In this document: one piece after another, positions 1 to 49,204 of the stretch
Layout: each line of letters starts with the position of its first letter
How positions within the stretch are numbered: position 1 is the first letter of the stretch
Virus record (IMG/VR): IMGVR_UViG_3300028586_000020
Coordinates: 15,149 to 79,148 of that record
Strand: one strand, 5' to 3'
DNA length: 64,000 nucleotides
Source: a virus
Taxonomy: Duplodnaviria > Caudoviricetes
Position numbers and translations under genes: made by a program
Notes under the pieces: model-generated
The model's input: the letters and a program-made list of their open reading frames with translations, nothing else
Told to the model about the DNA's origin: nothing
Databases searched by the model: none

Positions 1-256
1 TAGGATCATCATTGATCCATGCGACATCCGAATCACGCACTTCTTTGTTTTGCTGGTTATTACCAACCGAACCCGATTGGAACACCAGCATTTCGCCGAG
101 TTCGATGATTTTCTTGCATTCATCGCGATCAGCGTTGTAAACGGCGGGCTCGCCTTCTTTCTCGACAGCCCAGCCGTTACCGAATGCGTTGAAGAGTTCA
201 CAGTGCGACACGTAGGGGAACACGCGCACTGGGATGCCGTAACGAGGTTGGTTCAT
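1..256 (-). CDS. Partial gene running off the left edge: putative 2OG-Fe(II) oxygenase (prolyl-4-hydroxylase-like), N-terminal 85 aa
   Basis: Not in the ORF track. Manual translation from ATG at 256 (AAGGA RBS upstream) is open to the window edge: MNQPRYGIPVRVFPY...DECKKIIELGEMLVFQSGSVGNNQQNKEVRDSDVAWINDDP. The 'ECxxII.LG' and 'VRDSxVxWI' blocks resemble the N-terminal part of P4H-like 2OG-Fe(II) oxygenases. The catalytic HxD...H residues would lie outside the window. Confidence 0.6.
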   Translation of the reverse strand, partial: MNQPRYGIPVRVFPYVSHCELFNAFGNGWAVEKEGEPAVYNADRDECKKIIELGEMLVFQSGSVGNNQQNKEVRDSDVAWINDDP

Positions 257-280
257 GATGCTTTCCTTAGTGGACAATTA

Positions 281-3184
281 TTAGAATTGTTGCTTGACGA
301 TGACTTGAGCGCCCGGACCCACATTGACCGGGTATTTGCCATCTACGCTTGTTTCAAGGGTGGCCAAGGTATCTGCCACATAGTTCCCTGGCGCACCACC
401 AGCAGCGCCTGGGAAGGTTACTCCCAAAGCAGCAAACGGTGAAGAAGGCCCGCCTGAGGTAGGTGGGTTATACGCAACTGTGCCTGGCACCGCAGGGTTA
501 TAATTGGCCGTGCCTGGTACAGTAGGATTGTACGAAGCATTGCCGGGTGTATCAGGGTTGTAATTGGCTGTCCCTGGAACCGCTGGATTATAATTGGCTG
601 TACCGGGAGCCGGTGGGTTGTAGTTGGCATTGCCAGGAATCGACGGATTATACGTTGTCGGATTCACATAGCTCGGATTGGTGTACGCTGGATTGTACAC
701 GGCTGGGTTGGTCGAAGATGGATTCGTCGTTGGCGGGTTGCTGTATTCTGCTGCGTACGATCCTGGATTGGTGTTACCTGGTATCCAGGAAGGTGGATTC
801 ACATTGCCCGGTGTGAAGGTGCCTGGATTGGTGATGGTGGCCCCAGGGAATACACAGAACATTGAATACTGCCAGCCCTGGTCATTGGTCAGCCATTCTG
901 GATACGATCCTTCAGGACAGCTTAAGTCACCAGGGTGGCTACCATAAGGCGCAGAGATGTAGCCATCTGGACCTAATTGATAACGGTACCCTTCTTCATA
1001 CGTCGTGTTGCCCGGTGTGAAGGTGCCGGGGTTGGTGGCGCCTGGTGCGTAATTGCCTGGATTGCTATTACCCGGTGTGTACACCGCCGGCACATAGTTA
1101 CCAGGCGTGGTATTGCCGGGCACCGTGTTACCAGGGATATACGAAGCAGGAACAGGGTTGCCAGGCACATAGTTGCCTGGAATTGCCGTGCCGGGCGTAC
1201 TCGGGTTGGTATTGGCATACGTTCCCGGTGTCGGTGGGTTGTACCCGGTAAGGTTTCCGCCGCTGTTGGGATTGTATCCTGCCACATTGCCTGGGGTGGC
1301 CGGATTGTACCCAATCAAATTTCCACCTGTTGGCGGATTATACCCTGCAATCTCCGCCGGTTTTGACGGGTTATACACAACATTTCCTGGCGATGGTAAA
1401 TTATAATTTGCATTCCCAGGTATTACGGGATTGTAATTGGCATTACCGCCGGAAGGGCTATTGTAGACAGGTGTGCCTGGTACGATAGGGTTGTAGTTGG
1501 CATTTCCGCCTGTGGGCGGATTGTAGTTCGCGTTACCGGGCGTAGGTGGATTGTAATTCGCATTGCCCGGAATCGTCGGATTGTAATTCGCATTGCCACC
1601 TGTCGGTGGGTTATAGTTCACATTGCCCGGTGTGCTTGGGTTTTGCGAGAAGGTCGGTGGGTTGGTGTACGACGCGTTCGATGGCCCAGGGGTGTACACG
1701 TACGTATAGTTCACCTCGTAGTAGCTACCGCCCCGACCACCAAAGCGTGGTGGATCATACACGGTGTACGGCGCCAGTTCAGGATTACCTGGCACGCTCC
1801 AACCTTCATACGCCCAACCCTCTTCTTGCTCTTCATAGAGCGAATTGTTGCGATAGAAGGAGTTGGCCCAACCTTCTTTGGTGCCAGGATTGGCATAACC
1901 TGCAACGAAGTTACCAGGATGGGTGACGACGTTCCCGCCTGTGGGCGGATTGGTATTGGCGTACGTGCCAGGGATAGTGGGGTTGTAGTTGGCTACATTC
2001 CCACCTGTAGGCGGATTGGTGCTGACGTAGTTCCCTGGCGTACTCGGGTTATAGTTCGCCAACGTACCTGGTACCGGAGGATTGTAGTTCGCTACGTTCC
2101 CTGGAGTTGGCGCGTTGACAATTGGATTGCCTCCCGCAGAAGGGTTGTAACCCGACACAGTGCCCACCACTGGCGGATTGTAGTTTGCGTTACCCGGCAC
2201 TACTGGGTTATAGTTCGCGTTGCCACCAGAAGGCGGATTATACGCGACAGTCCCTGGTGTGTACGACGGCGGATTGGTGTAGGCTGGTACTGCCGTTGGT
2301 GGGTTGGTGTACGTTGTGCCCGCAGTATACGTCGGTGGGTTGTAATACGCAGGCGAATAGTTGCCCGGATTCGCTCCGTTGTTACCTGGCGTGTACGTGC
2401 CTTGGTTGGTACCAGGGTTGCCGGGTGTGTACGTGCCCGGATTGGTATTGCCCGGTTGGAACGTCGTACATACCCGATGTGGCTTACCAGCGTCGTCGGT
2501 ATCGTAACCGGCAAACGACCATCCCACCGGACAGGCTTGCATACCACCTGGTCCATACCCCGTGAAGATTTCTTGATAATCACCTGGATTGGTGTTACCT
2601 GGCGTATAGGTCGATGGGTTGGTATAAGGATTGCCGGGCGTGAACGTAGGTGGGTTGCTATACGGATTACCAGGCGTATAAGCCGCCGGCACCAGTGTGC
2701 CCGGAGCGTAGTAGTTCGGGTTGCTGCCGCTGTTACCCGGAATGTTGTAGGCTGGCGAATAGTTCCCTGGCGTGTACACCGGTGGATTGGTGTATTGGGC
2801 GCCTGGCACTACGGGATTGTAGTTTGCAACGTTGCCGCCACCGGGCGGGTTGTAGTTGGCGACCGTTCCAGGAACAGACGGATTGTAATTGGCATTACCG
2901 GGGATTGTCGGATTGTAATTCGCATTGCCCGGTACCACCGGGTTATACCCCACGATGTTGCCAGGCGTGTTGGGATTGTAGCCCGAAATGGTGCCATTGT
3001 TGGAAGGATTGTACATGATGTTGCCGGGAACGGTGGAGTTCCCTGGCGAACCAGTACCGGAGACGAGCACGGACGATTTGCCGTATTCCAATGTGACTGT
3101 ACCTGGCGCATTAAAAATGGAGGTACTTGGAACAATACGGGCATTCGTTCGTTCACGCCGAAGCTTTTGCGTTAAACGAGTCAT
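281..3184 (-). CDS. 967-aa Pro/Gly/Asn/Tyr/Thr-rich repeat protein, probable tail-fibre-associated virion protein
   Basis: Dozens of about 10-aa PGNANYNPxx and 5-aa YxPGN repeats. The N-terminus (IFNAPGTVTLEYGKSSVLVSGTGSPG) and C-terminus (GVTFPG...YPVNVGPGAQVIV) resemble the two halves of the phage glycine-rich fibre-associated domain. Lies directly downstream of a fibre-like gene. Confidence 0.7.
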   Translation of the reverse strand: MTRLTQKLRRERTNARIVPSTSIFNAPGTVTLEYGKSSVLVSGTGSPGNSTVPGNIMYNPSNNGTISGYNPNTPGNIVGYNPVVPGNANYNPTIPGNANYNPSVPGTVANYNPPGGGNVANYNPVVPGAQYTNPPVYTPGNYSPAYNIPGNSGSNPNYYAPGTLVPAAYTPGNPYSNPPTFTPGNPYTNPSTYTPGNTNPGDYQEIFTGYGPGGMQACPVGWSFAGYDTDDAGKPHRVCTTFQPGNTNPGTYTPGNPGTNQGTYTPGNNGANPGNYSPAYYNPPTYTAGTTYTNPPTAVPAYTNPPSYTPGTVAYNPPSGGNANYNPVVPGNANYNPPVVGTVSGYNPSAGGNPIVNAPTPGNVANYNPPVPGTLANYNPSTPGNYVSTNPPTGGNVANYNPTIPGTYANTNPPTGGNVVTHPGNFVAGYANPGTKEGWANSFYRNNSLYEEQEEGWAYEGWSVPGNPELAPYTVYDPPRFGGRGGSYYEVNYTYVYTPGPSNASYTNPPTFSQNPSTPGNVNYNPPTGGNANYNPTIPGNANYNPPTPGNANYNPPTGGNANYNPIVPGTPVYNSPSGGNANYNPVIPGNANYNLPSPGNVVYNPSKPAEIAGYNPPTGGNLIGYNPATPGNVAGYNPNSGGNLTGYNPPTPGTYANTNPSTPGTAIPGNYVPGNPVPASYIPGNTVPGNTTPGNYVPAVYTPGNSNPGNYAPGATNPGTFTPGNTTYEEGYRYQLGPDGYISAPYGSHPGDLSCPEGSYPEWLTNDQGWQYSMFCVFPGATITNPGTFTPGNVNPPSWIPGNTNPGSYAAEYSNPPTTNPSSTNPAVYNPAYTNPSYVNPTTYNPSIPGNANYNPPAPGTANYNPAVPGTANYNPDTPGNASYNPTVPGTANYNPAVPGTVAYNPPTSGGPSSPFAALGVTFPGAAGGAPGNYVADTLATLETSVDGKYPVNVGPGAQVIVKQQF
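290..3050 (-). repeat. Degenerate coding tandem repeats (about 30-nt and 15-nt units) within the 967-aa ORF
   Basis: Recurrent + strand words such as ggattgtaattcgcattgcc and gggttgtagttggc. They are diverged at synonymous positions, so the repeat is maintained at the protein level. Confidence 0.85.
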
Positions 3185-3199
3185 TCTACCCTGCCTTCA

Positions 3200-4435
3200 T
3201 TAACGGGTGTTCTTGTTCGACAGCGAACCAGTCCAGGTTGCCATGTTGTCTTCCGACCAGAAGTACCAGACGTCTTTGGCGCCCGCTGCGGTGGTGCGCG
3301 CTGGTGTGACACCATCGACCCACTTGACATTGCTTGGCCAAGCAATAGCGAAAGCAGTCGGCACGTTGGCGTTGATGGTACTGACCGAGAACTCGACGAC
3401 TTGACCTGCCATATCACCGACATTACGGATATCAAAGCCGATGGCGCCATTGGCACTGACGGTCACTTGGTAAGCGCCGGCTTGGCTAATATCGATGGCG
3501 ATGGTGCCATTCATCGGGATCTTCACCAGATTTTGCGAACCCAGTCCAGTGAACTTTGGACGATCCATATTGGCCTTTTGATTGACCACGGCGATCAATG
3601 CTTTGTGTAACGCTTGCAGTTTGCACAGCGCGCTTAACACGCTATCGGTTTCCGACAGGTTTTCTGGCTCGACTTCGGTGAGGCTGGTAAGTTTGGCAGC
3701 CAACGCACGCGATTCAGTGAAATACTTGTTGATCTCACCTTCTGGTACGTTGTCTGTGGTGCGGGTTAAGTTCAACAACGCTTGTTCGACGTAGAGCTCC
3801 ATTTGCTCGACTGTCGGCACGCCCAGGTCAACAGCAGTGAGGTTGTGGGCATTGCCTTGCTGGTTGATGTGCTGCGTCATTGCTGAGCTGGCTTGGGTCA
3901 GAATCGCATCGACCATGCGGTTAAGGGCAGCCAACACACTGCTCATGCCGACCATGTCCTTCAGATTCCACTCATGGGGCACGGGTGGGAAGATGTCCGG
4001 GTAACCTGCCACTTGGTCCCAGCTGGTGGTACGGGGGTTGTAGACTTTGTCTGCCAGGATTTCTGCTGTCTTGTTGGCATCGACCGTCCACTCGCCACCG
4101 AGCGTTTGGTAAGGGTTAAAGATGACGGTACCACGCAGCTCATTGTTGAGCATGGTGATCGAACCCTTCACCGGTTTTTGGCATGCCTTACTGGCGCCGA
4201 TGAAATGGTGTGAGAAATAAAAATCTACTCCTTCCACGAGTGGGCGAATGTCCCCCTGCAACGACTTGAAGTTGAGCGTCATGCTTTCAGCAAAGAACGG
4301 CGTCGCTTTCGGAATCAGGAAAATGAAGTTCTCATCGCTCCCGCCGAGCAAAGGTTGCAGTTCGCCAACGACCCTGTTCGTCGCAGCTTGACCGGTAGGA
4401 TCGAAAGGATATTGCGGGCTTGTGATAGTAGACAT
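3200..4435 (-). CDS. Putative tail fibre / baseplate-attached virion protein
   Basis: The N-terminal YPFDPTG...N...E motif is typical of phiKZ-like virion fibre/baseplate proteins. The C-terminus IAWPSNVKWVDGVTPARTTAAGAKDVWYFWSED..TWTG resembles a common phage tail-fibre C-terminal domain. Start moved to ATG 4435 (AAGG RBS). Confidence 0.7.
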   Translation of the reverse strand: MSTITSPQYPFDPTGQAATNRVVGELQPLLGGSDENFIFLIPKATPFFAESMTLNFKSLQGDIRPLVEGVDFYFSHHFIGASKACQKPVKGSITMLNNELRGTVIFNPYQTLGGEWTVDANKTAEILADKVYNPRTTSWDQVAGYPDIFPPVPHEWNLKDMVGMSSVLAALNRMVDAILTQASSAMTQHINQQGNAHNLTAVDLGVPTVEQMELYVEQALLNLTRTTDNVPEGEINKYFTESRALAAKLTSLTEVEPENLSETDSVLSALCKLQALHKALIAVVNQKANMDRPKFTGLGSQNLVKIPMNGTIAIDISQAGAYQVTVSANGAIGFDIRNVGDMAGQVVEFSVSTINANVPTAFAIAWPSNVKWVDGVTPARTTAAGAKDVWYFWSEDNMATWTGSLSNKNTR

Positions 4436-4545
4436 GAAAAGCACCTTTTTGAAGGTCGGAGAAATAATGCCGGGATAATGTTATGTTAGGTCCAAGCGAC
4501 TATATTATCTCGGCGTTTCGCCTCTACAAGCAAAGGATTTTCCCC

Positions 4546-5796
4546 ATGTATAACCTGGTTTCTGCCATTGTAAAGCCAGTTGACAGCGGTGGTCGGTGGC
4601 GTAGCATGGGCATTGAAAACGTCCCGCTGAACAACTTGTACAACGATTTTAAACGCGTGATTGTCACGCTCTCCAGCCCGGTCTTAACTGCGCCGGTCAG
4701 TTTAGAGATGGAATTGCTGCGCGCTGAATTAGGCGGGCTGACCCAAACCTTTGGTCAATGGTTACAAGAAAACGGGAACGCAACGCTTCCCACATCCAAT
4801 TCCCTGCCCACGATCAATACCCGTTACGCCCATTTCTCCGACGCCATTCGTTCAGGTTACAAGGCTACCCCTACCCACCCGACGATCTCGCCTTCGAGCC
4901 CGATTCCATTGTCGAGTAAGACCTACGCGATTCTCACCCGTCCTGAAGCAGATTACGAATACATGTATCGTCGCACGCTCGTTAGCGTCAATGGCTTTTA
5001 CCATCAAACCGATTACAGTGTCGAAGGTCTCTTTGTCACTGACGCCATGAAGACGTGCTTGAAAGCGGGACGCAATGAAATCGGGTTGTTGTCGTTTGAA
5101 GCGCTGGGTACATTGCAGTTTTTGCAAATCAAAGACGACATGATTTACACCCATCGTCCTCAGCAAAAGCTGCGTTATAATTGCTACGTGGATACCGGTG
5201 TCGATCTCTCGAACAAGACGGTGATGTTGGTGTTGGGTGGGTATTTACACACGCTTGACAAGCGCACGTTCTACCGGATCAGCGCTACCGCCTTCGGGAT
5301 CGACTTCGGCCAGATTCCTTTGGTGGACCGCTATTACGAATCCTACGACACCATTGATTTGGAGGAATTGGGATTAGAGCGTTCGGACACCAACAGCAGC
5401 CAAGTCGGGATCAACAATCTCTTTAGCGACGAGGTATTGCGGCGTTATTTGCAGTTGTCGCAAAGTTTCTTTGTGGTGCTCGACAACCAAGAAATCTTCA
5501 CCGACGTCGTTGAAGTCAAGCCATCGCCTTTCCCTGGCACCTACACGTCTAGCATCACGCCTGTCTATCCACTGATGGTGGGTCACGGTCGTCATGAAGT
5601 TTTCTGGCCACGTAAAGAGCATGACCGTTTCTCGGTCAACATCAATACGCAGGCTGCCTGGACAGCGCCTAAGAACTACGAGACCGTCCAGACCCGTAGC
5701 GAGAATTCGGTCAGCGATGCCAAGTTCGCTGCTTTGGGTTTCCGCAATTCGCAAGCCCACTTCCAACTCATCGGTACTGACATTTACGTTCCTTAA
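4546..5796 (+). CDS. Conserved jumbo-phage virion structural protein
   Basis: Long ORF; likely start ATG 4546 with AAAGGA RBS. It lies between fibre and spike genes and ends at a hairpin. Confidence 0.6.
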   Translation: MYNLVSAIVKPVDSGGRWRSMGIENVPLNNLYNDFKRVIVTLSSPVLTAPVSLEMELLRAELGGLTQTFGQWLQENGNATLPTSNSLPTINTRYAHFSDAIRSGYKATPTHPTISPSSPIPLSSKTYAILTRPEADYEYMYRRTLVSVNGFYHQTDYSVEGLFVTDAMKTCLKAGRNEIGLLSFEALGTLQFLQIKDDMIYTHRPQQKLRYNCYVDTGVDLSNKTVMLVLGGYLHTLDKRTFYRISATAFGIDFGQIPLVDRYYESYDTIDLEELGLERSDTNSSQVGINNLFSDEVLRRYLQLSQSFFVVLDNQEIFTDVVEVKPSPFPGTYTSSITPVYPLMVGHGRHEVFWPRKEHDRFSVNINTQAAWTAPKNYETVQTRSENSVSDAKFAALGFRNSQAHFQLIGTDIYVP

Positions 5797-5800
5797 ACGG

Positions 5801-5840
5801 CATAGCTCCCTCTACCCTACGGGGTAGAGGGAGGACTATG
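5801..5840. terminator. Bidirectional hairpin with CATAG/CTATG flanks
   Basis: CTCCCTCTACCC-TACG-GGGTAGAGGGAG between convergent genes. The 28-nt core is identical to 27478-27505. Confidence 0.8.
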
Positions 5841-5846
5841 TTTGTG

Positions 5847-6893
5847 TTACAGATCGATACAGATTTTGGGGAAAGTAAACGAGATAAACTTTTTGAGGGT
5901 ATTCTCGATAAAGTCCATGATGGGTTTGAGTAATCCCAACGTCAGGTTGTGCATGATGAGCTTGATCCCCATGGCGATATTCACGTCAGGGAAATTCATG
6001 TTCGGCACGAGTGGATCGGGGATAGCTGGTAGCGGTGGAAAACCAGGGAACGTGATAGATGCTAAGATGGCAGGCAAGTTAATCGATGGCAGTGTAGGCA
6101 TACCAGGGATGGCTGGCAAAGAAGGCCAGTCGATGTTGGGCCACCCAGGAAACTTCGGGATCTCCAAACTCAAGTTCGGTAATTGAATACCTGCAATCGC
6201 ATTGCGCACCGCGTTTTTGACCATGTTTACCACTGAATCGAAACTCGGGAAACTCGGCAGAGCAGGCATCGCTGCAATCTTTAACTTGTCCGTTACTTTC
6301 TTGATTAAGCCAATGACTGCGGTGGTCACGGTTTGCAAGTAGCCGCTCACCAACGCCATCAAGGTGTGGGTAATTTCCAAGTCAGGAATTTTCAATGTTC
6401 CAAAGATGGGAATGGGGATAAACGGCAAATGCACTTTGTCAAGAATAGCTTGCTTAATGGCTGCCACCAACGCTTTGACATTCCCTGATACCAAGTCGAC
6501 CAAATCGAAATTGGGTAGACCAGGTAACTTGGGTAAGAAACTGCCGATGTCCAATCCCAAGAATGAGAGCATGGGTTTGATCATGGCCATCAGCGTGGTT
6601 TGAAATTGAAACGATTGAAGCTGAATCGCGATCGTGACAAATTACAAATTCGGCATACGTAAACTACCGAGCAAAGGACTAGGCAATCCCAAGAGTGCCA
6701 AGGTAAAATCAGGTAACTTTGGGATAGCCGGTAAAGGTGGCCATTGAATATCGGGAATACCTGGAAACTTAGGTATTTCGAAATGGGGCAACTGAAAGTT
6801 CGGCAACGCCGGCGGGAAGGTCAGGAGCGGTCGAAACGCCGCCATGATGCCGTCAAAACTTGGAATGGGGGTGTCAACACAAATGTGTGGCAT
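5847..6893 (-). pseudogene. Pro-rich three-repeat protein (candidate spike-tip protein) interrupted by one in-frame TAA at 6642-6644
   Basis: ORFs 6642..6893 and 5847..6590 share a frame and are joined by 17 open codons. Strong AAGGAG RBS at the 6893 start and none at 6590. Internal repeats run across the stop (GSLRMPNL* versus GTLKIPDLE). Confidence 0.65.
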
Positions 6894-6906
6894 AACGCTA
6901 CTCCTT

Positions 6907-7767
6907 TTACACGACAGTGGTATTGGGGCTAACCATCGTGGCTGCTGTATCGCCCTGGAACGTCACCGTACCACCTTTACCGTGCAATGCTTTGGAAGCG
7001 GTGGTGGTCACTGTCTCGGCTTTGGTGATTGAACTTTGCTGGACCATGTGCACCATGTTCTTCGCTTTTACGGTGTAGGTTTCAGGCACCGTGATGGTTA
7101 AGTTCTTTTTGTTGATGTCGATCGATGTCCCATCGGGGTTTTGCATCGCCATCTGCTTTTCTTTGAAGTCAATGATAAAAACATGGCCAGTGTCATCGCG
7201 GAATTGGAAATGTCCTTCTTTGGTGTTAAGTTGGATATCGACCGTGCAAAATTCACCATTGGCTTTACTGGTATGGAAATTGACTTGCCCTTTGTGGGTC
7301 GACACTTCCATGTAGTAGTAGTTGTCACCGTTGACTTCAGCGCTCTCGTTTTGGGTGCCGCTCCAGGCATAGATCACCGTTTCGAGTTTGCGCAGTTTCA
7401 AGTCATCAAAGAGCCGCACCCAAAAGAAACGGTCTTCGTCAGAAAAGCGATACAACATTACGATCGCGCCACGGCGCACATCAGGCGGGGTAAAGCGGTT
7501 GTCGCTCCCCAAGGGCAACCAGGTCGCCTCGACACTATTGGACGTGCCTGTCTTGATTTGGAACTCACCGCCTAACCGGTCTTGCGATTTGATGCTTTCG
7601 ACAACGGTGCCTGACTTGATCTCGCCATCGAGCATTGGCAAATCTTCGATCGGGGTGACTTCCACGATGCGGCAAGGACCGCCGTCTTTCCCTTTGAGTT
7701 TCTTGTTTTCTGCCACCATGCCGAGGGAATAAGGCTTTAGTTCTGAAAACATTTCCGGCATCAGCAT
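6907..7767 (-). CDS. Baseplate central spike / puncturing protein (phiKZ gp164-like, gpV/gp5-like)
   Basis: OB-fold-like N-terminus with ATWLPLGSDNRFTPPDVRRGAIVMLYRFSDEDRFFW, then a beta-strand-repeat C-terminus. Divergent from sbcC, as expected from phiKZ-like gene order. Confidence 0.75.
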   Translation of the reverse strand: MLMPEMFSELKPYSLGMVAENKKLKGKDGGPCRIVEVTPIEDLPMLDGEIKSGTVVESIKSQDRLGGEFQIKTGTSNSVEATWLPLGSDNRFTPPDVRRGAIVMLYRFSDEDRFFWVRLFDDLKLRKLETVIYAWSGTQNESAEVNGDNYYYMEVSTHKGQVNFHTSKANGEFCTVDIQLNTKEGHFQFRDDTGHVFIIDFKEKQMAMQNPDGTSIDINKKNLTITVPETYTVKAKNMVHMVQQSSITKAETVTTTASKALHGKGGTVTFQGDTAATMVSPNTTVV

Positions 7768-7846
7768 GACTAGCTCCTGATCAGTAAAAATGAAAAATGA
7801 TGGGGACTATCTATGTTCTGTAAGAGGCCCATAATAGAAAGCACCC

Positions 7847-10405
7847 ATGTACCGAATTCTCTCTTTAACGCTAGAAGGTTGCCGGCGCTTGTTGGTTCCT
7901 GAGATCCGGAAAATCACCATCACTCCCCAGTCACCGATCCAACTGATCCTGGGCACCAACGGTTGCGGTAAGAGTTCGCTCATTGACTTACTCACCCCAC
8001 TGCCGGCTGAAAAAGAATCCTTTGTCAAAGGAGGCAGCAAAACCATCCATATCGAAAGCCACGGTCGTCACTATGTTTGCACGACCCGCGTTGAAAAGAG
8101 CGCTGAGCACAGTTTTGTAATGGAAGGTGAAGAACTCAATCCAGGCGGCACTGCCACCGTGCAGCTGGACTTGTGCAAGAAACACTTCAACGTTACCCTT
8201 GAATCTCACGAACTCATGAAGGGAAAGGTAAAGTTTACCGATCTCAAGCCTGCGGAGCGACGTGAGTGGATTATGTCGCTTTGTGAAGGCGACAATGAGT
8301 TTGCGTTAAACGCTTACGATAAAATCAGGCAGCACGCCAACTGGTTAACTGGCGCGCTGAAGATGAATCTCAAAAACCTCGGTAATGAAATTGCCAAGGT
8401 AATGTCAGAAGCTGAAGAAATCAAGTTAGAGCAAGAAGTCAACGCGCTGCGCTCAGAACTCCATATCTTGCAAGCTGAACGCATGCCGCTCGAACAGACG
8501 CCTAGTCAACACGCTAACGCGCGCGAACAAGCTCTGCGTACACTGCAAGAAGTATCGATGCGTTTGCTGCGTTTGAAAGTTGTCGCCCCTTACGAGTACG
8601 AATGCTGGTGGACGGATGTGGAACCAAACAAGCCACCACAACGTGCGCAGTTCCGTTCGCTCACAGAAGTGGATTACGAGATCGATCGTCTCAAGCACAT
8701 CGTCACGAGTAAAGAGACGACACTGGTGAACGTTAACGAGCAATACACCAAGCTGCAACACCAGCACGATGTATTGATCAAAACTGGCGCAGAAGGCGTG
8801 CAAAGCATCGACCGTCAACTGCAAGCGCTGCGCATCGAACGCACGAGTAAAGTCAATCGTCTGCGGCTGGGTTTACATTTCAGTGACGCCAGGAACGCAC
8901 ACCAAGCATTGGCTGCCATCGACACAGCCTTGGTGGATGTATTACGTAATCTACCAGAAAACAGTGACCGCCGGTATGGTCGTGCACAATACGAAACGTT
9001 GCAAAAAGAAATGGTAGTGGCAACGGAGCAGCTTAATTTGCAGGTTGAATTCCTGCACCGTCTGCGAGCGCAGAAAGACCACGCTGATTTGCATCGCGGT
9101 GAAAACAAGCATAGCTGTCCTTCGTGCCACCATAGCTGGGTCGTGGGTATTGACGAGAAACAATACGCGTTGATTGTGGCAGGCATCAAAGATGCGGATG
9201 CGAAGCTGGTGGCAATGCGAGAAAAGCACGCGGAGTTGATGAAGACGTTGGAAACCATCGAAGCGTATTTTGTTCAGTACCGCGAAGTGATGGCTTACAC
9301 GCGCAACATCGTGATCTTGCAACCGTTCTGGGATTACTTGTTGGATTCGAAGTTAATCTTGGAGTCACCCAACGAAGCGGTGAGCGCTGTACAACACCTG
9401 CAACGTGATTTGCTTGTCTCTATCGAAATCCAAGAAATCGAAGAAAAGCTAGAAGAACTGACGAAGCTGCGTGCGCAAGCAGAAGAAGTCGGCGACGCTA
9501 ACTTAACGGAAGTGCGTGCGCAAATGGATGCGGTGGCAGATAAGCTCGGCACACTCACCGCAGAACTCACCCATGTGCAACGCGCCGTCTCAGAGTACAG
9601 TGACTACCGACGTCAACTCAATACGGGCCTTCAGTTGGGCGAAGAACTTCACCGACAGTATAACCTGGCCGAGAAAGAGCAATACGGCTACGTCGAAGCG
9701 TTTCGTCGTGAAAGTATTCAACACTGCCTGCGGGAAGTGGAGAATGCCATGTCGCTCAAAGAAGAGTCGTTGCGGGCAGTAAAACGTCAGAAGGATCTGG
9801 TAACTGCGCTCAAGCAACAGATCGCGAAATTGGAAGTGCAAGAAGCTGCCGCAAAAGCGATGGTGAATACGTTGTCGCCTAAGAACGGGTTGATTGCCCA
9901 AGGACTGATGGGATTTGTGCGTGCCTTTGTGGGACAAATGAATACCTACATCAACCGTATCTGGCGTTATCCTCTGCAAATTATCCCTACTGGTTTTGAT
10001 GTAGAGAACAATGAGCAGACGGTGGATTTGGATTACAAGTTCAAACTCATCGTGGAACGGGAAAACAACATCATCAAAGATGTATCGTTGGGTAGTGAAG
10101 GGATTCAAGAAGTGGTGAACTTGGCGTTTGAGAGGATTGCTGCTAAGTACCTCAATCTCGCTGACGTGCCGCGCTTCTTGGATGAACGTGGTAAAGCATT
10201 TGATGACGAACACCGCAATGCGTTTACCGAAGCGATCAAGTGGGACATGGATAACACCAATTGCCCACAGCTTTTCATGATTAGCCACTATGCCGTAGGT
10301 CATTCTGCGTTTTCGAATGCCGAGGTGTGTGTTATCGATAACCGCAACGTGGTACTGGCATCCGACTTAACCTACAACAAGCACGTTAATATCGTGCATC
10401 TTTAA
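7847..10405 (+). CDS. sbcC: SbcC/Rad50-like SMC ATPase
   Basis: Walker A GTNGCGKS, long coiled coils with central CPSC zinc hook, signature-like SLGSEG, Walker B FLDERG, H-loop ISH. Confidence 0.92.
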   Translation: MYRILSLTLEGCRRLLVPEIRKITITPQSPIQLILGTNGCGKSSLIDLLTPLPAEKESFVKGGSKTIHIESHGRHYVCTTRVEKSAEHSFVMEGEELNPGGTATVQLDLCKKHFNVTLESHELMKGKVKFTDLKPAERREWIMSLCEGDNEFALNAYDKIRQHANWLTGALKMNLKNLGNEIAKVMSEAEEIKLEQEVNALRSELHILQAERMPLEQTPSQHANAREQALRTLQEVSMRLLRLKVVAPYEYECWWTDVEPNKPPQRAQFRSLTEVDYEIDRLKHIVTSKETTLVNVNEQYTKLQHQHDVLIKTGAEGVQSIDRQLQALRIERTSKVNRLRLGLHFSDARNAHQALAAIDTALVDVLRNLPENSDRRYGRAQYETLQKEMVVATEQLNLQVEFLHRLRAQKDHADLHRGENKHSCPSCHHSWVVGIDEKQYALIVAGIKDADAKLVAMREKHAELMKTLETIEAYFVQYREVMAYTRNIVILQPFWDYLLDSKLILESPNEAVSAVQHLQRDLLVSIEIQEIEEKLEELTKLRAQAEEVGDANLTEVRAQMDAVADKLGTLTAELTHVQRAVSEYSDYRRQLNTGLQLGEELHRQYNLAEKEQYGYVEAFRRESIQHCLREVENAMSLKEESLRAVKRQKDLVTALKQQIAKLEVQEAAAKAMVNTLSPKNGLIAQGLMGFVRAFVGQMNTYINRIWRYPLQIIPTGFDVENNEQTVDLDYKFKLIVERENNIIKDVSLGSEGIQEVVNLAFERIAAKYLNLADVPRFLDERGKAFDDEHRNAFTEAIKWDMDNTNCPQLFMISHYAVGHSAFSNAEVCVIDNRNVVLASDLTYNKHVNIVHL

Positions 10406-47714: not shown

Positions 47715-48156
47715 GCATCGCCGGCCTGGGCCACACGGCAAGCATGAAAGCTCACCAGGCACACCCATGCAAGCCCAACGGCTAAGCCAAAAAATCTGGC
47801 GTACTCCGCAGCGTCTACCAAACGGTACGGAGTACGCTAGTAAAAGGAACTAGGGTCATCCTTGTCTTGTATTACATACATCGATGTACCAGGCACACAG
47901 ACAGAGTATTGCCTGGTACAGAAGGTGTCACTGTAAGACGAAGTTCTCTTTAAGAGAACATTCCCTCATCTCTTTCGAAACATACCTCTTAGCCTGACGG
48001 GGCAAACACATGGGGCGCATTGGTCCTCATCGAAAGAGATGTAAGTAGTCCATGTCCGCTACCGTAAGGGAAGTTGGCAAACAACAGACATGGTTGTGAC
48101 CAGGCTCTCGCTCCTTCGGGAGCGAGAGCCTGAGTTATGATGTCTCTTTTTTTTTT
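47715..48156 (+). ncRNA. Candidate structured non-coding RNA (about 440 nt)
   Basis: No credible ORF. Consecutive stems at 47724-29/47755-60, 47796-808/47828-840, 47885-895/47910-920, 47943-959, 47967-978/48030-041 and 48050-056/48087-093, then a 14-bp terminator hairpin. Confidence 0.5.
48101..48156 (+). terminator. Rho-independent terminator
   Basis: CAGGCTCTCGCTCC-TTCG-GGAGCGAGAGCCTG, then TTATG and a 10-T run. Confidence 0.85.
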
Positions 48157-48262
48157 CATTTTTAAACACAGCCTCTGTGAGGCGTTTATTTCCTATGGAC
48201 ACAAGAATCTACTCAGCCACAGAAACAAACGCTCCTAGGGGCCTTATAGACCGTTTTGACAG

Positions 48263-48306
48263 CATACTACCCATCCATCCCCGCTGTGGAGATGGATGGG
48301 AGTATG
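48263..48306 (-). terminator. Hairpin with CATACT/AGTATG flanks downstream of the tail tube gene
   Basis: CCCATCCATC...GATGGATGGG stem. Confidence 0.75.
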
Positions 48307-48313
48307 ACGTTGT

Positions 48314-49204
48314 TTAGACGTTGATTTGACGATTGGCGATGCTTTGCACGCTGGCATCGAAACCGACACCACCAGCTGCGCGTACATCTGCGCTGATCTG
48401 GTTGATCATGGCCTGTTTCATCATCGGGTTAGCACCGACGTAGTTGACCGTGTTCAGGATCTGCTGCGCGAACGCGTCGACACCGGGGCCGACTTGGTGC
48501 AGGGCGGTGAACGACAGATCGAGCTGGACCGTTTGCATGTCCTGGGTCTTGTCTGCCGAACCGACGATGTCGCCCGTGCCTTCTGGGAACATGTTGAAGC
48601 AGAGCCAGGATTGCTGGACTTTGCGACCGAATGCATCCGGCTCGATGTAGAGCACGGTCATCGTGGTTTGGTCGGCGAGCAGATCAGGCGCTTGGCCGCT
48701 GTTGTAGGCCGCTTGAAACGCTGGCAGGGTGGTCACCATAGGGAACTTGGTGTCCGGGTCCATGCCCGCATACAGCATCCAGGTTTCGATCAGGCGTTGG
48801 ATCGGGCGACCGAAGCGTTCGATGTACGAGTGCTTCGGCTGCGATTCAGCGCGCTTGATGTTCGACAGGTCTTTCTGCGTTTGACCGGAGCCGCCGAAAG
48901 CGTTTTCGGTAAAGCTGGCCGAGAGGCCGCGGTTCAGACCATCGATGTTCAGCCATTGCGTCTCGATCAGAGCGCGCAGCGCCGAAACGTATTTTGGGCT
49001 GTTCGGGAAATACTGGAACAGCTTGGGGGCCTCGATCAGGATGGGGATGAGGTGACGACGGATGTGCGCTTGGTTGTTGACAAACGCAGCATGGTCCGGC
49101 GCCCAACCCATCTGGCCGCCGTAGGTCAGATCGACCATCGGCGCATTGGCACCCAGACCGTAAGCTGTGCCAGGTTGCAGAATGGCACCAGTAGGACGAG
49201 TCAT
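48314..49204 (-). CDS. Tail tube protein (phiKZ gp30-like)
   Basis: 296 aa directly downstream of the sheath gene; WLCFNMFPEGTG motif and highly biased codons. Confidence 0.85.
   Translation of the reverse strand: MTRPTGAILQPGTAYGLGANAPMVDLTYGGQMGWAPDHAAFVNNQAHIRRHLIPILIEAPKLFQYFPNSPKYVSALRALIETQWLNIDGLNRGLSASFTENAFGGSGQTQKDLSNIKRAESQPKHSYIERFGRPIQRLIETWMLYAGMDPDTKFPMVTTLPAFQAAYNSGQAPDLLADQTTMTVLYIEPDAFGRKVQQSWLCFNMFPEGTGDIVGSADKTQDMQTVQLDLSFTALHQVGPGVDAFAQQILNTVNYVGANPMMKQAMINQISADVRAAGGVGFDASVQSIANRQINV

What the first reader, a model, noticed from the sequence alone, without database searches (positions are those of the whole stretch)
1..3184. Prolyl-hydroxylase-like oxygenase gene directly behind a Pro/Asn-repeat virion protein: a possible phage-encoded fibre modification system
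Seen in sequence: a gene absent from the ORF track starts at 256 (minus strand, AAGGA RBS), 24 nt after the stop of the 967-aa PGN/YNP repeat protein, in the same apparent operon as a tail-fibre-like gene. Its 85 visible residues contain DECKKIIELG and EVRDSDVAWI. Established: these blocks resemble the N-terminus of P4H-type 2OG-Fe(II) dioxygenases, a family that hydroxylates Pro (and, in other members, Asn/Asp) in repeat proteins; the chlorovirus PBCV-1 encodes a P4H acting on Pro-rich repeats. Inference: this phage may hydroxylate, and perhaps then glycosylate, its own Pro/Asn-rich fibre. I know of no such description for phiKZ-like phages.
Basis: partly seen in the sequence, partly recalled or inferred. 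Interest (0 to 1): 0.8.

Follow-up and report, generated by a model that had tools for sequence, protein, structure and literature searches.

The report
Phage tail-fibre protein hydroxylation cassette
An uncultured jumbo phage keeps a prolyl-hydroxylase-type enzyme locked next to a proline/asparagine/tyrosine-rich tail-fibre-associated repeat protein, and in related phages the same cassette also carries a hydroxyproline-type sugar transferase, so phages probably chemically mature a fibre protein in a way so far known mainly from eukaryotes and giant viruses.

Summary
The truncated minus-strand ORF starting at window 256 is the start of a 221-aa gene that continues left of the window.

The full protein is a PF13640 (P4H-family) 2OG-Fe(II) oxygenase. 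H136-x-D138...H198 and R208 are invariant in 24 relatives.

It sits in one uninterrupted array: fibre, 967-aa repeat protein, oxygenase, two DUF6065 paralogues, then a tail-fibre chaperone. The linkage holds in both directions:
- All 27 loci of this oxygenase subfamily have DUF6065 next door, and most have a repeat-protein gene just upstream.
- Seven of eight repeat-family members sampled independently have the oxygenase in the same operon.
- These oxygenases form one well-supported clade, separate from cyanophage accessory oxygenases.

In about half of the distant relatives the cassette ends with a PF11397 glycosyltransferase, the family of the Skp1 hydroxyproline GlcNAc-transferase. The window's own lineage has no detectable glycosyltransferase.

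DUF6065 has a dUTPase-like fold, not a cupin fold, and its role is unknown. The repeat protein is a split beta-domain carrying one long excursion rich in X-Pro-Gly and Asn-Pro.

Best reading: a dedicated protein (probably prolyl) hydroxylase maturing a fibre-associated protein. This is not proven biochemically. Other first-stage readers flagged the same stretch of this contig, but none had checked it.

The parts
1..256 (-). 5' part (codons 1-85) of the 221-aa 2OG-Fe(II) oxygenase gene. The gene continues left of the window to G000:C1:14739 (L001:1091-1756, minus strand).
   Evidence: ORF and sequence. PF13640 at 78 bits, E 1e-21. phrog_61, E 1e-36. H136, D138, H198 and R208 invariant in 24 homologues. 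Sequence matches to solved PKHD/PiuC, PPHD and B. anthracis P4H structures.
264..268 (-). AAGGA ribosome-binding site, 7 nt before the oxygenase ATG, inside the 24-nt spacer after the repeat gene's stop codon.
   Evidence: Read directly from the sequence.
281..3184 (-). 967-aa Pro/Asn/Gly/Thr/Tyr repeat protein. N-terminal residues 1-60 and C-terminal residues 908-967 are the conserved halves of one beta-domain. Between them lie YNP-type decapeptide and TPGN-type arms in a mirrored order, around two islands each with a C-x20-C pair (Cys 218/239 and 756/777) and a central Trp/Tyr/Glu-rich island (434-509).
   Evidence: Searches give the anatomy. The AF2 model of the 276-aa homologue L086 has its N and C segments packed into one domain at pLDDT above 90, with the repeats below 50. 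The family comprises 174 representative clusters, always with the half-domain at the extreme C-terminus. No Pfam, PHROG or NCBIfam model matches.
3200..4444 (-). Tail-fibre-like protein 1 (414 aa), first gene of the array. Its C-terminal ~100 aa recur at the end of the gene that precedes the repeat protein in distant loci.
   Evidence: phrog_2163, 13857, 9017 and 7760. tblastn matches to the C-terminal region in L087, L088, L096, L098, L101 and L103. PF26209 (Phage_phiTE_241_C) is precomputed on the equivalent gene in L096.

Best explanation
The gene encodes an active, dedicated 2-oxoglutarate/Fe(II) protein hydroxylase of the prolyl-4-hydroxylase family. It belongs to a conserved tail-fibre maturation cassette.

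The most likely substrate is the product of the gene just upstream. This is a fibre-associated protein built from a split beta-domain 'base' and a long out-and-back excursion made of X-Pro-Gly and Asn-Pro-rich decapeptides. The enzyme would convert some of these prolines to hydroxyproline in the infected cell, before or during fibre assembly. That would stiffen or stabilise the extended Pro-rich arms.

In many related phages a Gnt1/GT60-type transferase encoded at the end of the same cassette would then glycosylate the new hydroxyl groups. This phage's own lineage has no such transferase, so hydroxylation would be the end point here, unless the two DUF6065 proteins add a further step. Those two proteins have a dUTPase-like fold and are always co-encoded with the oxygenase.

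Shown: enzyme family, catalytic residues, operon structure, two-way conserved linkage, a dedicated oxygenase clade, and the glycosyltransferase in relatives.

Inferred: the substrate, the target residue, the timing, and the structural consequence.
For: Enzyme:
- PF13640 at 78 bits.
- HxD...H plus Arg invariant in 24 sequences.
- Homology to solved PPHD, P4H and PKHD enzymes.

Operon:
- Spacers are 15, 24 and 17 nt, followed by two 4-nt overlaps.
- The only strong hairpin terminator comes after Tfa.

Forward linkage:
- All 27 loci of the subfamily have DUF6065 directly downstream.
- Most have a P/N/G/T/Y repeat ORF directly upstream.
- About 55 cyanophage-type oxygenase loci have neither.

Reverse linkage:
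- Seven of eight repeat-family members sampled from an independent 1.84-billion-protein search carry the oxygenase in the same operon.

Clade:
- Support of 99/96 for 30 rows: 28 with the module, plus 2 truncated contigs.
- Each complete relative has only this one PF13640 gene.

Pathway logic:
- A PF11397 GlcNAc-transferase (85-115 bits) sits right after DUFb in L008-L014, L016 and L020, and in L096, L102 and L103.
- Its family acts on hydroxyproline made by the P4H PhyA in the Skp1 pathway (PMC3515798).

Residue:
- PG is present in 115 of 118 family members, and PGN in 94.
- Lys has a median of 0%.
- X-Pro-Gly is the collagen P4H motif (10.1101/2023.06.28.546674).
Against: - There is no biochemical or proteomic evidence. 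No cultured phage carries the cassette, so it is not known whether the repeat protein is in virions.
- The oxygenase is not specifically closest to collagen-type P4Hs. Its best named relatives are PKHD/YbiX/PiuC enzymes of unknown substrate, and it falls far below their cutoffs.
- GT60 enzymes can also glycosylate Ser or Thr directly (own knowledge), and the repeats are Thr-rich. The glycosyltransferase therefore does not by itself prove that hydroxyproline is made.
- A few family members have only 4-7% Pro but plenty of Asn and Tyr.
- The linkage stems from a single clade, so the number of loci is not a count of independent events.
- The DUF6065 pair is unexplained, and its nucleotide-enzyme fold hints at chemistry this model does not include.
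Confidence: 0.6

Rival explanations
1. The oxygenase does modify the repeat protein, but on a residue other than proline. Candidates are Asn (beta-hydroxylation) or Tyr/Thr-linked chemistry. The conserved YN and NYN motifs would then be the real target.
For: Asn and Tyr are as enriched as Pro across the family, each with a median near 13%. Some members have only 4-7% Pro. YN is present in 111 of 118 members.
Against: Characterised PF13640-type protein hydroxylases act on Pro. Known Asn hydroxylases belong to the JmjC/FIH or AspH families (own knowledge). PG is the most universal dipeptide, found in 115 of 118 members. The associated PF11397 family is tied to hydroxyproline (PMC3515798).
Confidence: 0.12
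2. The oxygenase acts on another product of the cassette, such as the fibre proteins, Tfa or the DUF6065 proteins. Alternatively it serves non-catalytically as an assembly factor, and the repeat protein is merely co-located.
For: The fibre C-terminal domain, DUF6065 and often Tfa co-occur with the oxygenase as consistently as the repeat protein does. In Xanthomonas phage PhiXhv-12 a distant homologue sits in the baseplate block with no P/N repeat protein.
Against: The catalytic residues are invariant, which argues against a purely structural role. The repeat protein is by far the most Pro-rich product of the cassette and always sits directly upstream. Where tandem paralogues of the repeat protein expand, the oxygenase stays behind them.
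Confidence: 0.1
3. The oxygenase and the two dUTPase-fold DUF6065 proteins form a nucleotide, nucleotide-sugar or DNA-modification pathway that merely resides in the fibre operon.
For: DUF6065 has a dUTPase fold: Z 10.4 with 121 of 129 residues aligned. A motif III-like G-x-VD-x-[DE] is invariant. In HF1 and cyanophage S-RIM4, DUF6065 lies next to ribonucleotide reductase. There is a weak Tet_JBP hit at E 0.03.
Against: The genes are translationally coupled between structural genes. The linkage to the repeat-protein family holds in both directions. The partner enzymes in relatives are protein- or glycan-modifying: GT60, a sulfotransferase and a methyltransferase. The Tet_JBP score of 14 bits is far below its cutoff of 34.9. 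dUTPase similarity at sequence level is not significant, with hhalign probability 2%.
Confidence: 0.08
4. It is an accessory or host-directed hydroxylase like those of cyanophages. It might act on a host translation factor or simply consume 2OG. On this view it was inserted as a moron into the variable fibre region.
For: The nearest isolate-phage homologues are cyanophage and pelagiphage 2OG-Fe(II) oxygenases at 33-37% identity, which the literature treats as metabolic or DNA-repair genes (PMC3037559). Pseudomonas PPHD, which targets EF-Tu, is among the PDB hits.
Against: The cassette oxygenases form a separate, well-supported clade. Position and order are fixed across 37-75% identity and across different phage backbones. 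The gene is present once per genome.
Confidence: 0.05

Closest known systems
Skp1 prolyl-hydroxylation/glycosylation pathway of Dictyostelium and Toxoplasma (PhyA P4H, then Gnt1 GlcNAc-transferase)
   Same: A cytoplasmic P4H-family 2OG oxygenase is paired with a PF11397/GT60 transferase that acts on the new hydroxyproline (PMC3515798). The same two families sit in one operon in many relatives of this cassette.
   Different: The presumed substrate is a viral repeat protein with dozens of candidate sites, not a single Pro of Skp1. The window's own lineage lacks the transferase. Two DUF6065 proteins are added. The context is bacterial and viral.
Chlorovirus PBCV-1 prolyl 4-hydroxylase, and mimivirus collagen hydroxylase/glycosyltransferase
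   Same: A virus-encoded 2OG oxygenase presumed or shown to hydroxylate Pro-rich or collagen-like viral repeat proteins (own knowledge; PBCV-1 P4H is mentioned in PMC7019647).
   Different: Those are giant viruses of eukaryotes. Here the virus is a tailed phage, the gene is embedded in a tail-fibre operon, and the substrate family is different, with a 10/11-residue period rather than PAPK or G-X-Y.
Plant extensins and Pro-rich cell-wall proteins (P4H plus Hyp-O-glycosylation)
   Same: Pro/Tyr-rich short-repeat structural proteins that are hydroxylated by P4Hs and then O-glycosylated on Hyp (PMC3355594). The composition and the pathway logic are similar.
   Different: There is no sequence homology. 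Extensins use Ser-Pro(n) motifs and secretory-pathway enzymes. Tyr cross-linking was not tested here.
Cyanophage and pelagiphage 2OG-Fe(II) oxygenases (phrog_61)
   Same: Same Pfam and PHROG family, at 33-37% identity.
   Different: They fall in different clades. They usually occur in several copies inside accessory-gene islands, with no linked repeat protein or DUF6065 pair, and are interpreted as metabolic or repair genes (PMC3037559).
Mycobacteriophage virion glycosylation
   Same: Phage-encoded enzymes that post-translationally decorate the phage's own virion proteins (own knowledge; the phrase 'virion glycosylation' occurs in 24 papers of the library).
   Different: That system uses direct Ser/Thr glycosylation of capsid and tail-tube proteins, with no hydroxylase and no fibre-tip repeat protein.
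Trimeric dUTPase / dCTP deaminase superfamily (for DUF6065)
   Same: The fold matches at Z 8-10.4 over the whole dUTPase core. A motif III-like G-x-VD-x-[DE] is present.
   Different: There is no significant sequence similarity: no PF00692 hit, and hhalign probability is 2%. DUF6065 has extra N- and C-terminal helices. A conserved K-x-C-x-P-x-x-D block is absent from dUTPases. The context is a fibre operon.

Membership tests
PF13640 2OG-FeII_Oxy_3 (P4H-type 2OG-Fe(II) oxygenases) | Profile score above Pfam's gathering threshold across the whole catalytic domain | tested here: met
   78 bits against a cutoff of 27, E 1.1e-21, residues 122-214 on profile positions 1-96 of 98. Also detected in six-frame search of the contig.
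PF13640 2OG-FeII_Oxy_3 (P4H-type 2OG-Fe(II) oxygenases) | Fe(II) facial triad His-x-Asp ... His | tested here: met
   H136, D138 and H198 are invariant in 24 cassette oxygenases. They align with HID...H of the solved PKHD hydroxylase 3dkq.
PF13640 2OG-FeII_Oxy_3 (P4H-type 2OG-Fe(II) oxygenases) | Basic residue about 10 positions after the distal His that binds the C5 carboxylate of 2-oxoglutarate | tested here: met
   R208 is invariant and aligns with the Arg of 3dkq in the G-x-R block.
PF13640 2OG-FeII_Oxy_3 (P4H-type 2OG-Fe(II) oxygenases) | Double-stranded beta-helix fold | tested here: inconclusive
   No model of the oxygenase was built, because both fold jobs went to the unknown proteins. 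The fold is implied by sequence homology to solved DSBH enzymes 3dkq, 4iw3, PiuC and 5c5t, at E 1e-9 to 4e-4.
PF13640 2OG-FeII_Oxy_3 (P4H-type 2OG-Fe(II) oxygenases) | Peptidyl-proline 4-hydroxylase activity | not testable with these tools
   This needs an enzyme assay or mass spectrometry.
PKHD-type hydroxylase YbiX/PiuC (NCBIfam NF003972-NF003975) | Score at or above the equivalog cutoff | tested here: not met
   Best score is 62 bits against a cutoff of 143; the others are 43-51 bits against 180-399. It is related to this family but not a member.
P4H + GT60 (Skp1-type) hydroxylation-glycosylation pathway | A PF11397 GlcNAc-transferase encoded together with the P4H | tested here: not met
   Absent from the window's contig and from two complete relatives. 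The positive control detected it in 4 of 4 known loci. It is present in the cassette of distant relatives at 85-115 bits. The feature is therefore met for the cassette family but not for this phage.
DUF6065 (PF19541) | Profile score above the gathering threshold | tested here: met
   DUFa scores 27.3 bits against 26.6 and 27.4 bits in six-frame search. DUFb is not reached by Pfam, but it matches phrog_7084 at E 5e-22 and aligns with DUFa with shared invariant residues.
dUTPase / dCTP deaminase superfamily | Jelly-roll dUTPase fold | tested here: met
   The AF2 model has pLDDT 88.7. VIA-align gives Z 10.4, rmsd 3.4 and 121 of 129 residues aligned to 3h6x, and many dUTPases score Z 8-10, against Z 4.7 or less for unrelated folds. 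Foldseek E is about 4e-4.
dUTPase / dCTP deaminase superfamily | The five conserved dUTPase sequence motifs, including the C-terminal Gly-rich motif V | tested here: inconclusive
   There is no dUTPase Pfam hit at E up to 1. hhalign against E. coli Dut gives probability 2%, although it aligns the PGxS, GxVDxD and AGTPL blocks to motifs II, III and IV. No motif V-like segment is seen in alignment A1.
Phage tail assembly chaperone (PF16778) for the 160-aa gene | Profile score above the gathering threshold | tested here: inconclusive
   24.4 bits against 26.6. PHROG tail-fibre and tail-fibre-assembly families match at E 3e-10 to 9e-6. The positional equivalent in L015 scores 37.3 bits.
Collagen-like (G-X-Y) proteins | Gly at every third residue over long runs | tested here: not met
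   The repeat period is 10 or 11 residues (23 and 14 units), not 3.

The most novel reading that the evidence does not exclude
The cassette is a complete, previously undescribed maturation pathway for a new class of phage adhesin.

- The adhesin is an extensin-like, hydroxyproline-containing hairpin protein anchored on the fibre tip by a split beta-domain.
- The two DUF6065 proteins are a new enzyme type built on the dUTPase fold. They would act on the hydroxylated protein, for example as a nucleotide- or nucleotide-sugar-dependent transferase or cross-linker.
- That would explain why they are retained even where the GT60 transferase is absent.
- Because the hydroxylase depends on oxygen and 2-oxoglutarate, fibre maturation, and therefore infectivity or host range of the progeny, would report the physiological state of the infected cell.
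Probability: 0.15. Interest if true: 0.9.

Novelty: new variant of a known kind. Interest (0 to 1): 0.72.

Why it matters
Receptor-binding fibres decide phage host range. They are generally treated as products of sequence alone.

A conserved, phage-encoded hydroxylase, in relatives joined by a glycosyltransferase, sulfotransferase or methyltransferase, would add a chemical layer to fibre structure. Genome-based host-range prediction and fibre engineering do not account for such a layer.

It would also extend protein prolyl hydroxylation from eukaryotes, a few bacteria and giant viruses to tailed phages. It would give the abundant but unexplained phage 2OG-Fe(II) oxygenases one concrete and testable role.

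It defines two new protein families to study: the split-domain P/N/Y repeat protein and the dUTPase-fold DUF6065 pair. It also suggests a link between host oxygen and 2OG status and virion maturation.

The hypothesis is directly testable by co-expressing two genes and running mass spectrometry.

Tried and rejected
- **DUF6065 as a second cupin or DSBH oxygenase.** Rejected. Cupins score only about Z 3, against Z 10.4 for dUTPases.
- **Repeat protein as collagen-like.** Rejected. The period is 10 or 11 residues, not 3.
- **Lysyl hydroxylation.** Rejected. Lys has a median of 0% in the family's repeat regions, and there are 7 Lys in 967 aa here.
- **tblastn of the repeat protein against 50,697 isolate phages.** No match. 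The low-complexity filter may contribute to that.
- **Whole-protein search of the 5.8-billion-protein database.** Low-complexity words swamped it and it gave a single hit, so it is uninformative.
- **Pattern-based locus searches with divergent alignments A2 and A1.** These failed because no stretch was conserved enough. A profile of the C-terminal half-domain replaced them.
- **Fold search of the split beta-domain.** The best Z is 5.9 and the BFVD hits have E above 0.03. No fold assignment is claimed. Many of the weak BFVD hits were phage 'glycine-rich domain' or virion proteins, which is a lead only.
- **hhalign of DUF6065 against E. coli Dut.** Probability 2%.
- **ESM Atlas and NCBIfam for DUF6065 and the repeat protein.** Nothing beyond viral hypothetical clusters.
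- **Literature.** There are no papers on DUF6065. None links a prolyl hydroxylase to a phage tail fibre; the single hit was a general annotation paper.
- **Glycosyltransferases in the window's own lineage.** None of PF11397, PF00535 or PF00534 was found. Other GT families were not searched.


Full report
**Observation.** On the minus strand the 967-aa repeat gene ends with TAA at window 283-281. A 24-nt spacer follows, containing AAGGA at 268-264, and an ATG sits at 256-254. The 85 codons visible before the window edge include DECKKIIELG and EVRDSDVAWI. The window is positions 15149-79148 of a 79,148-bp IMG/VR viral contig with CheckV completeness 29%, so the missing part could be fetched. The complete ORF is 221 aa from that ATG. 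An upstream TTG would give 228 aa, but close relatives begin at the equivalent Met.

**What the gene is.** The protein matches PF13640 (2OG-FeII_Oxy_3) at 78 bits, E 1e-21, over the whole profile, and phrog_61 '2OG-Fe(II) oxygenase' at E 1e-36. By sequence it matches several solved enzymes: the PKHD-type hydroxylase 3dkq, the Pseudomonas prolyl hydroxylase PPHD (4iw3), PiuC, and the Bacillus anthracis P4H 5c5t. In an alignment of 24 cassette homologues, H136, D138, H198 and R208 are invariant, as are the RKLS and YEGGEL blocks. The iron triad and the 2OG-binding arginine are therefore intact. NCBIfam reaches only the YbiX/PiuC models and far below their cutoffs, at 62 bits against 143. The protein is thus a member of the P4H-type superfamily but of no named equivalog.

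**Genomic setting.** PHROG matches elsewhere on the contig point to a phiKZ-like jumbo phage: a 1477-aa phage RNA polymerase beta-like subunit, a tail sheath, a baseplate protein and a large terminase. Close relatives are 226-272 kb. I did not compare directly with phiKZ, so this remains an inference. On the minus strand the genes run as follows:
- fibre-like protein 1 (414 aa)
- repeat protein (967 aa)
- oxygenase (221 aa)
- DUF6065 paralogue a (267 aa; PF19541 at 27.3 bits; phrog_7084 at E 7e-41)
- DUF6065 paralogue b (259 aa; phrog_7084 at E 5e-22)
- a 160-aa tail-fibre-assembly-like protein
- fibre-like protein 2 (369 aa)

The spacers are 15, 24 and 17 nt, followed by two 4-nt overlaps. 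The only strong terminator-like hairpin on this strand, with a 15-bp stem, lies between the chaperone gene and fibre 2. The first six genes therefore look like one transcription unit.

**Is the linkage conserved?** Starting from the oxygenase, 80 IMG/VR loci were fetched and searched with all cassette proteins.
- All 27 loci with an oxygenase of this type (37-75% identity) have DUF6065 genes immediately downstream wherever the contig continues.
- Most have a Pro/Asn/Gly/Thr/Tyr-rich ORF immediately upstream.
- About 55 loci with cyanophage-type oxygenases have neither. Weak DUF6065 matches in L028 and L074 are the only exceptions.

Seven close jumbo contigs keep the entire order seen in the window. 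Two of them, L007 and L084, add a second repeat-protein gene behind fibre 2.

For the reverse test I built a profile of the repeat protein's conserved C-terminal half-domain and searched 1.84 billion representative proteins. Only 174 clusters matched, always at the extreme C-terminus. Of eight members sampled across the score range, seven have a PF13640 oxygenase in the same operon. One of these lies behind three tandem paralogues, and one is cut by the contig end. The eighth contig ends 474 nt after the gene and is uninformative.

A maximum-likelihood tree of 75 oxygenases places 28 module-linked sequences in one clade with 99/96 support. The two truncated contigs L100 and L104 fall in the same clade, and the cyanophage types lie outside it. 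Each complete relative has only this one PF13640 gene.

One caveat applies. Because the association traces to a single clade, the number of loci is not a count of independent events. What argues for a functional tie is that adjacency and order persist down to about 37% identity while everything around them changes.

**The relatives reveal the pathway.** In L008-L014, L016 and L020/L021, and in L096, L102 and L103, the gene directly after DUF6065b belongs to PF11397 'Glycosyltransferase (GlcNAc)' at 85-115 bits against a cutoff of 21. This is the family of Gnt1. Gnt1 adds GlcNAc to the hydroxyproline of Skp1 after hydroxylation by the P4H PhyA (PMC3515798; the family-to-Gnt1 link is my own knowledge).

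Other modification-type enzymes also appear in the cassette:
- In L008 the transferase is fused to a SAM methyltransferase.
- L020/L021 add a PF03567 sulfotransferase.
- L010-L014 add a PF13759 oxygenase.

The cassette therefore recruits protein- or glycan-modifying enzymes, which fits a protein substrate. In the window's own lineage a chaperone gene follows DUF6065b instead. PF11397, GT2 and GT1 are all undetectable in the contig and in two complete 271-272-kb relatives, and the PF11397 search found 4 of 4 known copies in a positive control. Glycosylation is therefore not supported for this phage.

**The presumed substrate.** The 967-aa protein is 17.4% Pro, 15.4% Asn, 13.4% Gly, 10.8% Thr and 9.4% Tyr. 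It has 23 ten-residue and 14 eleven-residue units ending in NP, with the consensus x-x-P-G-N-A-N-Y-N-P, plus Y-T-P-G-N-type units. It contains 67 PG and 65 NP dipeptides. At DNA level the repeats are degenerate, matching at 62-81%, so they are old and not a recent expansion.

The segments are ordered like a mirror:
- base
- YNP arm, then TPGN arm
- island with C218-x20-C239
- TPGN arm, then YNP arm
- a Trp/Tyr/Glu-rich middle island
- YNP arm, then TPGN arm
- island with C756-x20-C777
- TPGN arm, then YNP arm
- base

An AlphaFold2 model of a 276-aa family member, L086, packs the N-terminal (~14-60) and C-terminal (~205-276) segments into one beta-domain at pLDDT above 90. The repeats come out below 50. 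The chain must therefore leave this base and return to it. The base domain has no convincing structural relative: the best Z is 5.9 and the BFVD hits are not significant.

Across 118 family members the repeat region has medians of 13% Pro, 13% Asn, 13% Tyr, 12% Gly, 10.5% Thr and 0% Lys. PGN occurs in 94 members, YNP in 88 and PG in 115. X-Pro-Gly is the classical collagen P4H site (10.1101/2023.06.28.546674), so Pro is the most likely target. Asn or Tyr cannot be excluded.

The gene in front of the repeat protein ends with a conserved fibre C-terminal domain even in distant loci. This suggests that the base domain docks on the fibre tip. That is an inference.

**DUF6065.** A confident model of DUF6065a (pLDDT 88.7; alignment) matches dUTPases at Z 10.4, with 121 of 129 residues aligned. 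Many dUTPases score Z 8-10 and dCTP deaminases Z 6-7. Unrelated folds score 4.7 or less, and cupins about 3.

Sequence-level similarity is not significant: hhalign probability is 2%. Even so, the alignment it proposes puts PGxS, G-x-VD-x-[DE] and AGTPL on dUTPase motifs II, III and IV. Polar residues are invariant across both paralogues even though the two are only about 18% identical: C89, D94, D107, S164, D187, N196 and Y258. That pattern suggests an active or binding site.

DUF6065 is not confined to fibre cassettes:
- In halovirus HF1 and cyanophage S-RIM4 it lies beside ribonucleotide reductase.
- In cyanophage P-TIM40 it lies in an island of halogenases, oxygenases and a cupin, after a tail-fibre-assembly gene.

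Its role here is unknown. I keep a nucleotide-pathway rival at low probability, because the genes are translationally coupled between structural genes and their partners are protein- or glycan-modifying enzymes.

**Comparison with what is known.** Phage 2OG-Fe(II) oxygenases have been discussed as metabolic or DNA-repair accessory genes (PMC3037559). I found no paper on DUF6065 and none linking a prolyl hydroxylase to a phage fibre. No cultured phage in the 50,697-record collection carries the cassette. A distant oxygenase homologue lies in the baseplate block of Xanthomonas jumbo phage PhiXhv-12, flanked by two paralogous Asn/Gly/Ser-rich proteins.

The closest known systems are:
- the Skp1 PhyA/Gnt1 pathway
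- the chlorovirus P4H and the mimivirus collagen-modifying enzyme
- plant extensin maturation (PMC3355594)
- mycobacteriophage virion glycosylation

The cassette combines known enzyme families in a new setting, with a new substrate family and two unexplained partners. I therefore rate it a new variant of a known kind.

**Verdict.** The enzyme-substrate link, the target residue and the structural effect still need a simple co-expression and mass-spectrometry experiment. Other first-stage readers noted the same cassette, the mirrored repeat layout and the DUF6065 pair on this same contig. Those notes were unchecked and count as agreement only, not as independent evidence.

Noticed in passing
window 5847-6893 (minus strand): A Pro-rich 'P-x-I-P' gene in the baseplate region is split by a single in-frame TAA into an 83-aa ORF and a 247-aa ORF. 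The homologue in Xanthomonas phage PhiXhv-12 is one 311-aa ORF that covers both parts. The close jumbo relatives L005, L006 and L083-L085 show no match to this gene in the stretches fetched.
   Followed up: partly
L009:3919-9013: This contig carries a second, differently ordered module. A 1245-aa protein with 39% Gly has N- and C-termini resembling those of the repeat family. It is followed by DUF6065 and then a cyanophage-type oxygenase. This hints that the family grades into the phage 'glycine-rich domain' proteins.
   Followed up: partly
L021:1909-8336 (same contig as L020): The fibre gene here is collagen-like, with G-X-Y runs over 1136 aa. Between the 517-aa repeat-family protein (22% Asn, 4% Pro) and the oxygenase lie a 251-aa protein of unknown function and a PF03567 sulfotransferase.
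   Followed up: partly
L008:11963-13516: The cassette's PF11397 glycosyltransferase is fused to a C-terminal SAM-dependent methyltransferase domain (PF08242, PF13649).
   Followed up: no
L092 (Cyanophage P-TIM40, record 36-44 kb): A cultured cyanophage has an enzyme island right after a tail-fibre-assembly gene. It holds two tryptophan-halogenase-like genes, a DUF6065-like gene, several 2OG-Fe(II) oxygenases and a cupin. This may be a broader theme of modification enzymes sitting beside fibre genes.
   Followed up: no
L090 (Halophage HF1, record 48119-49003) and L093 (Cyanophage S-RIM4, record 158324-159118): In these two unrelated viruses, DUF6065 homologues lie next to ribonucleotide reductase genes, with no oxygenase nearby. 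This is compatible with a nucleotide-related activity for the family.
   Followed up: no
L091 (Xanthomonas phage PhiXhv-12, locus 5048-7922): A distant oxygenase homologue (28-30% identity) sits in the baseplate block between two paralogous proteins that share an M-x-VSNPPTL N-terminus. A 226-aa protein follows whose C-terminus resembles the end of a 2OG oxygenase.
   Followed up: no
window 281-3184 (protein residues 218/239 and 756/777): Both non-repeat islands carry a Cys pair with identical C-x20-C spacing, each starting with C-P. Most family members have one such C-P...C island in mid-protein. These could be disulfide-bonded or metal-binding tip modules.
   Followed up: partly
G003 (IMGVR_UViG_3300031134_000001, 271 kb): In this complete relative with terminal repeats, the cassette straddles the record's ends. 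The oxygenase is at 207-485 and DUF6065 at 270306-270821.
   Followed up: no
control genomes: PF19541 (DUF6065) scores above its cutoff in the Caulobacter vibrioides control genome, so cellular members exist. Their gene context was not examined.
   Followed up: no
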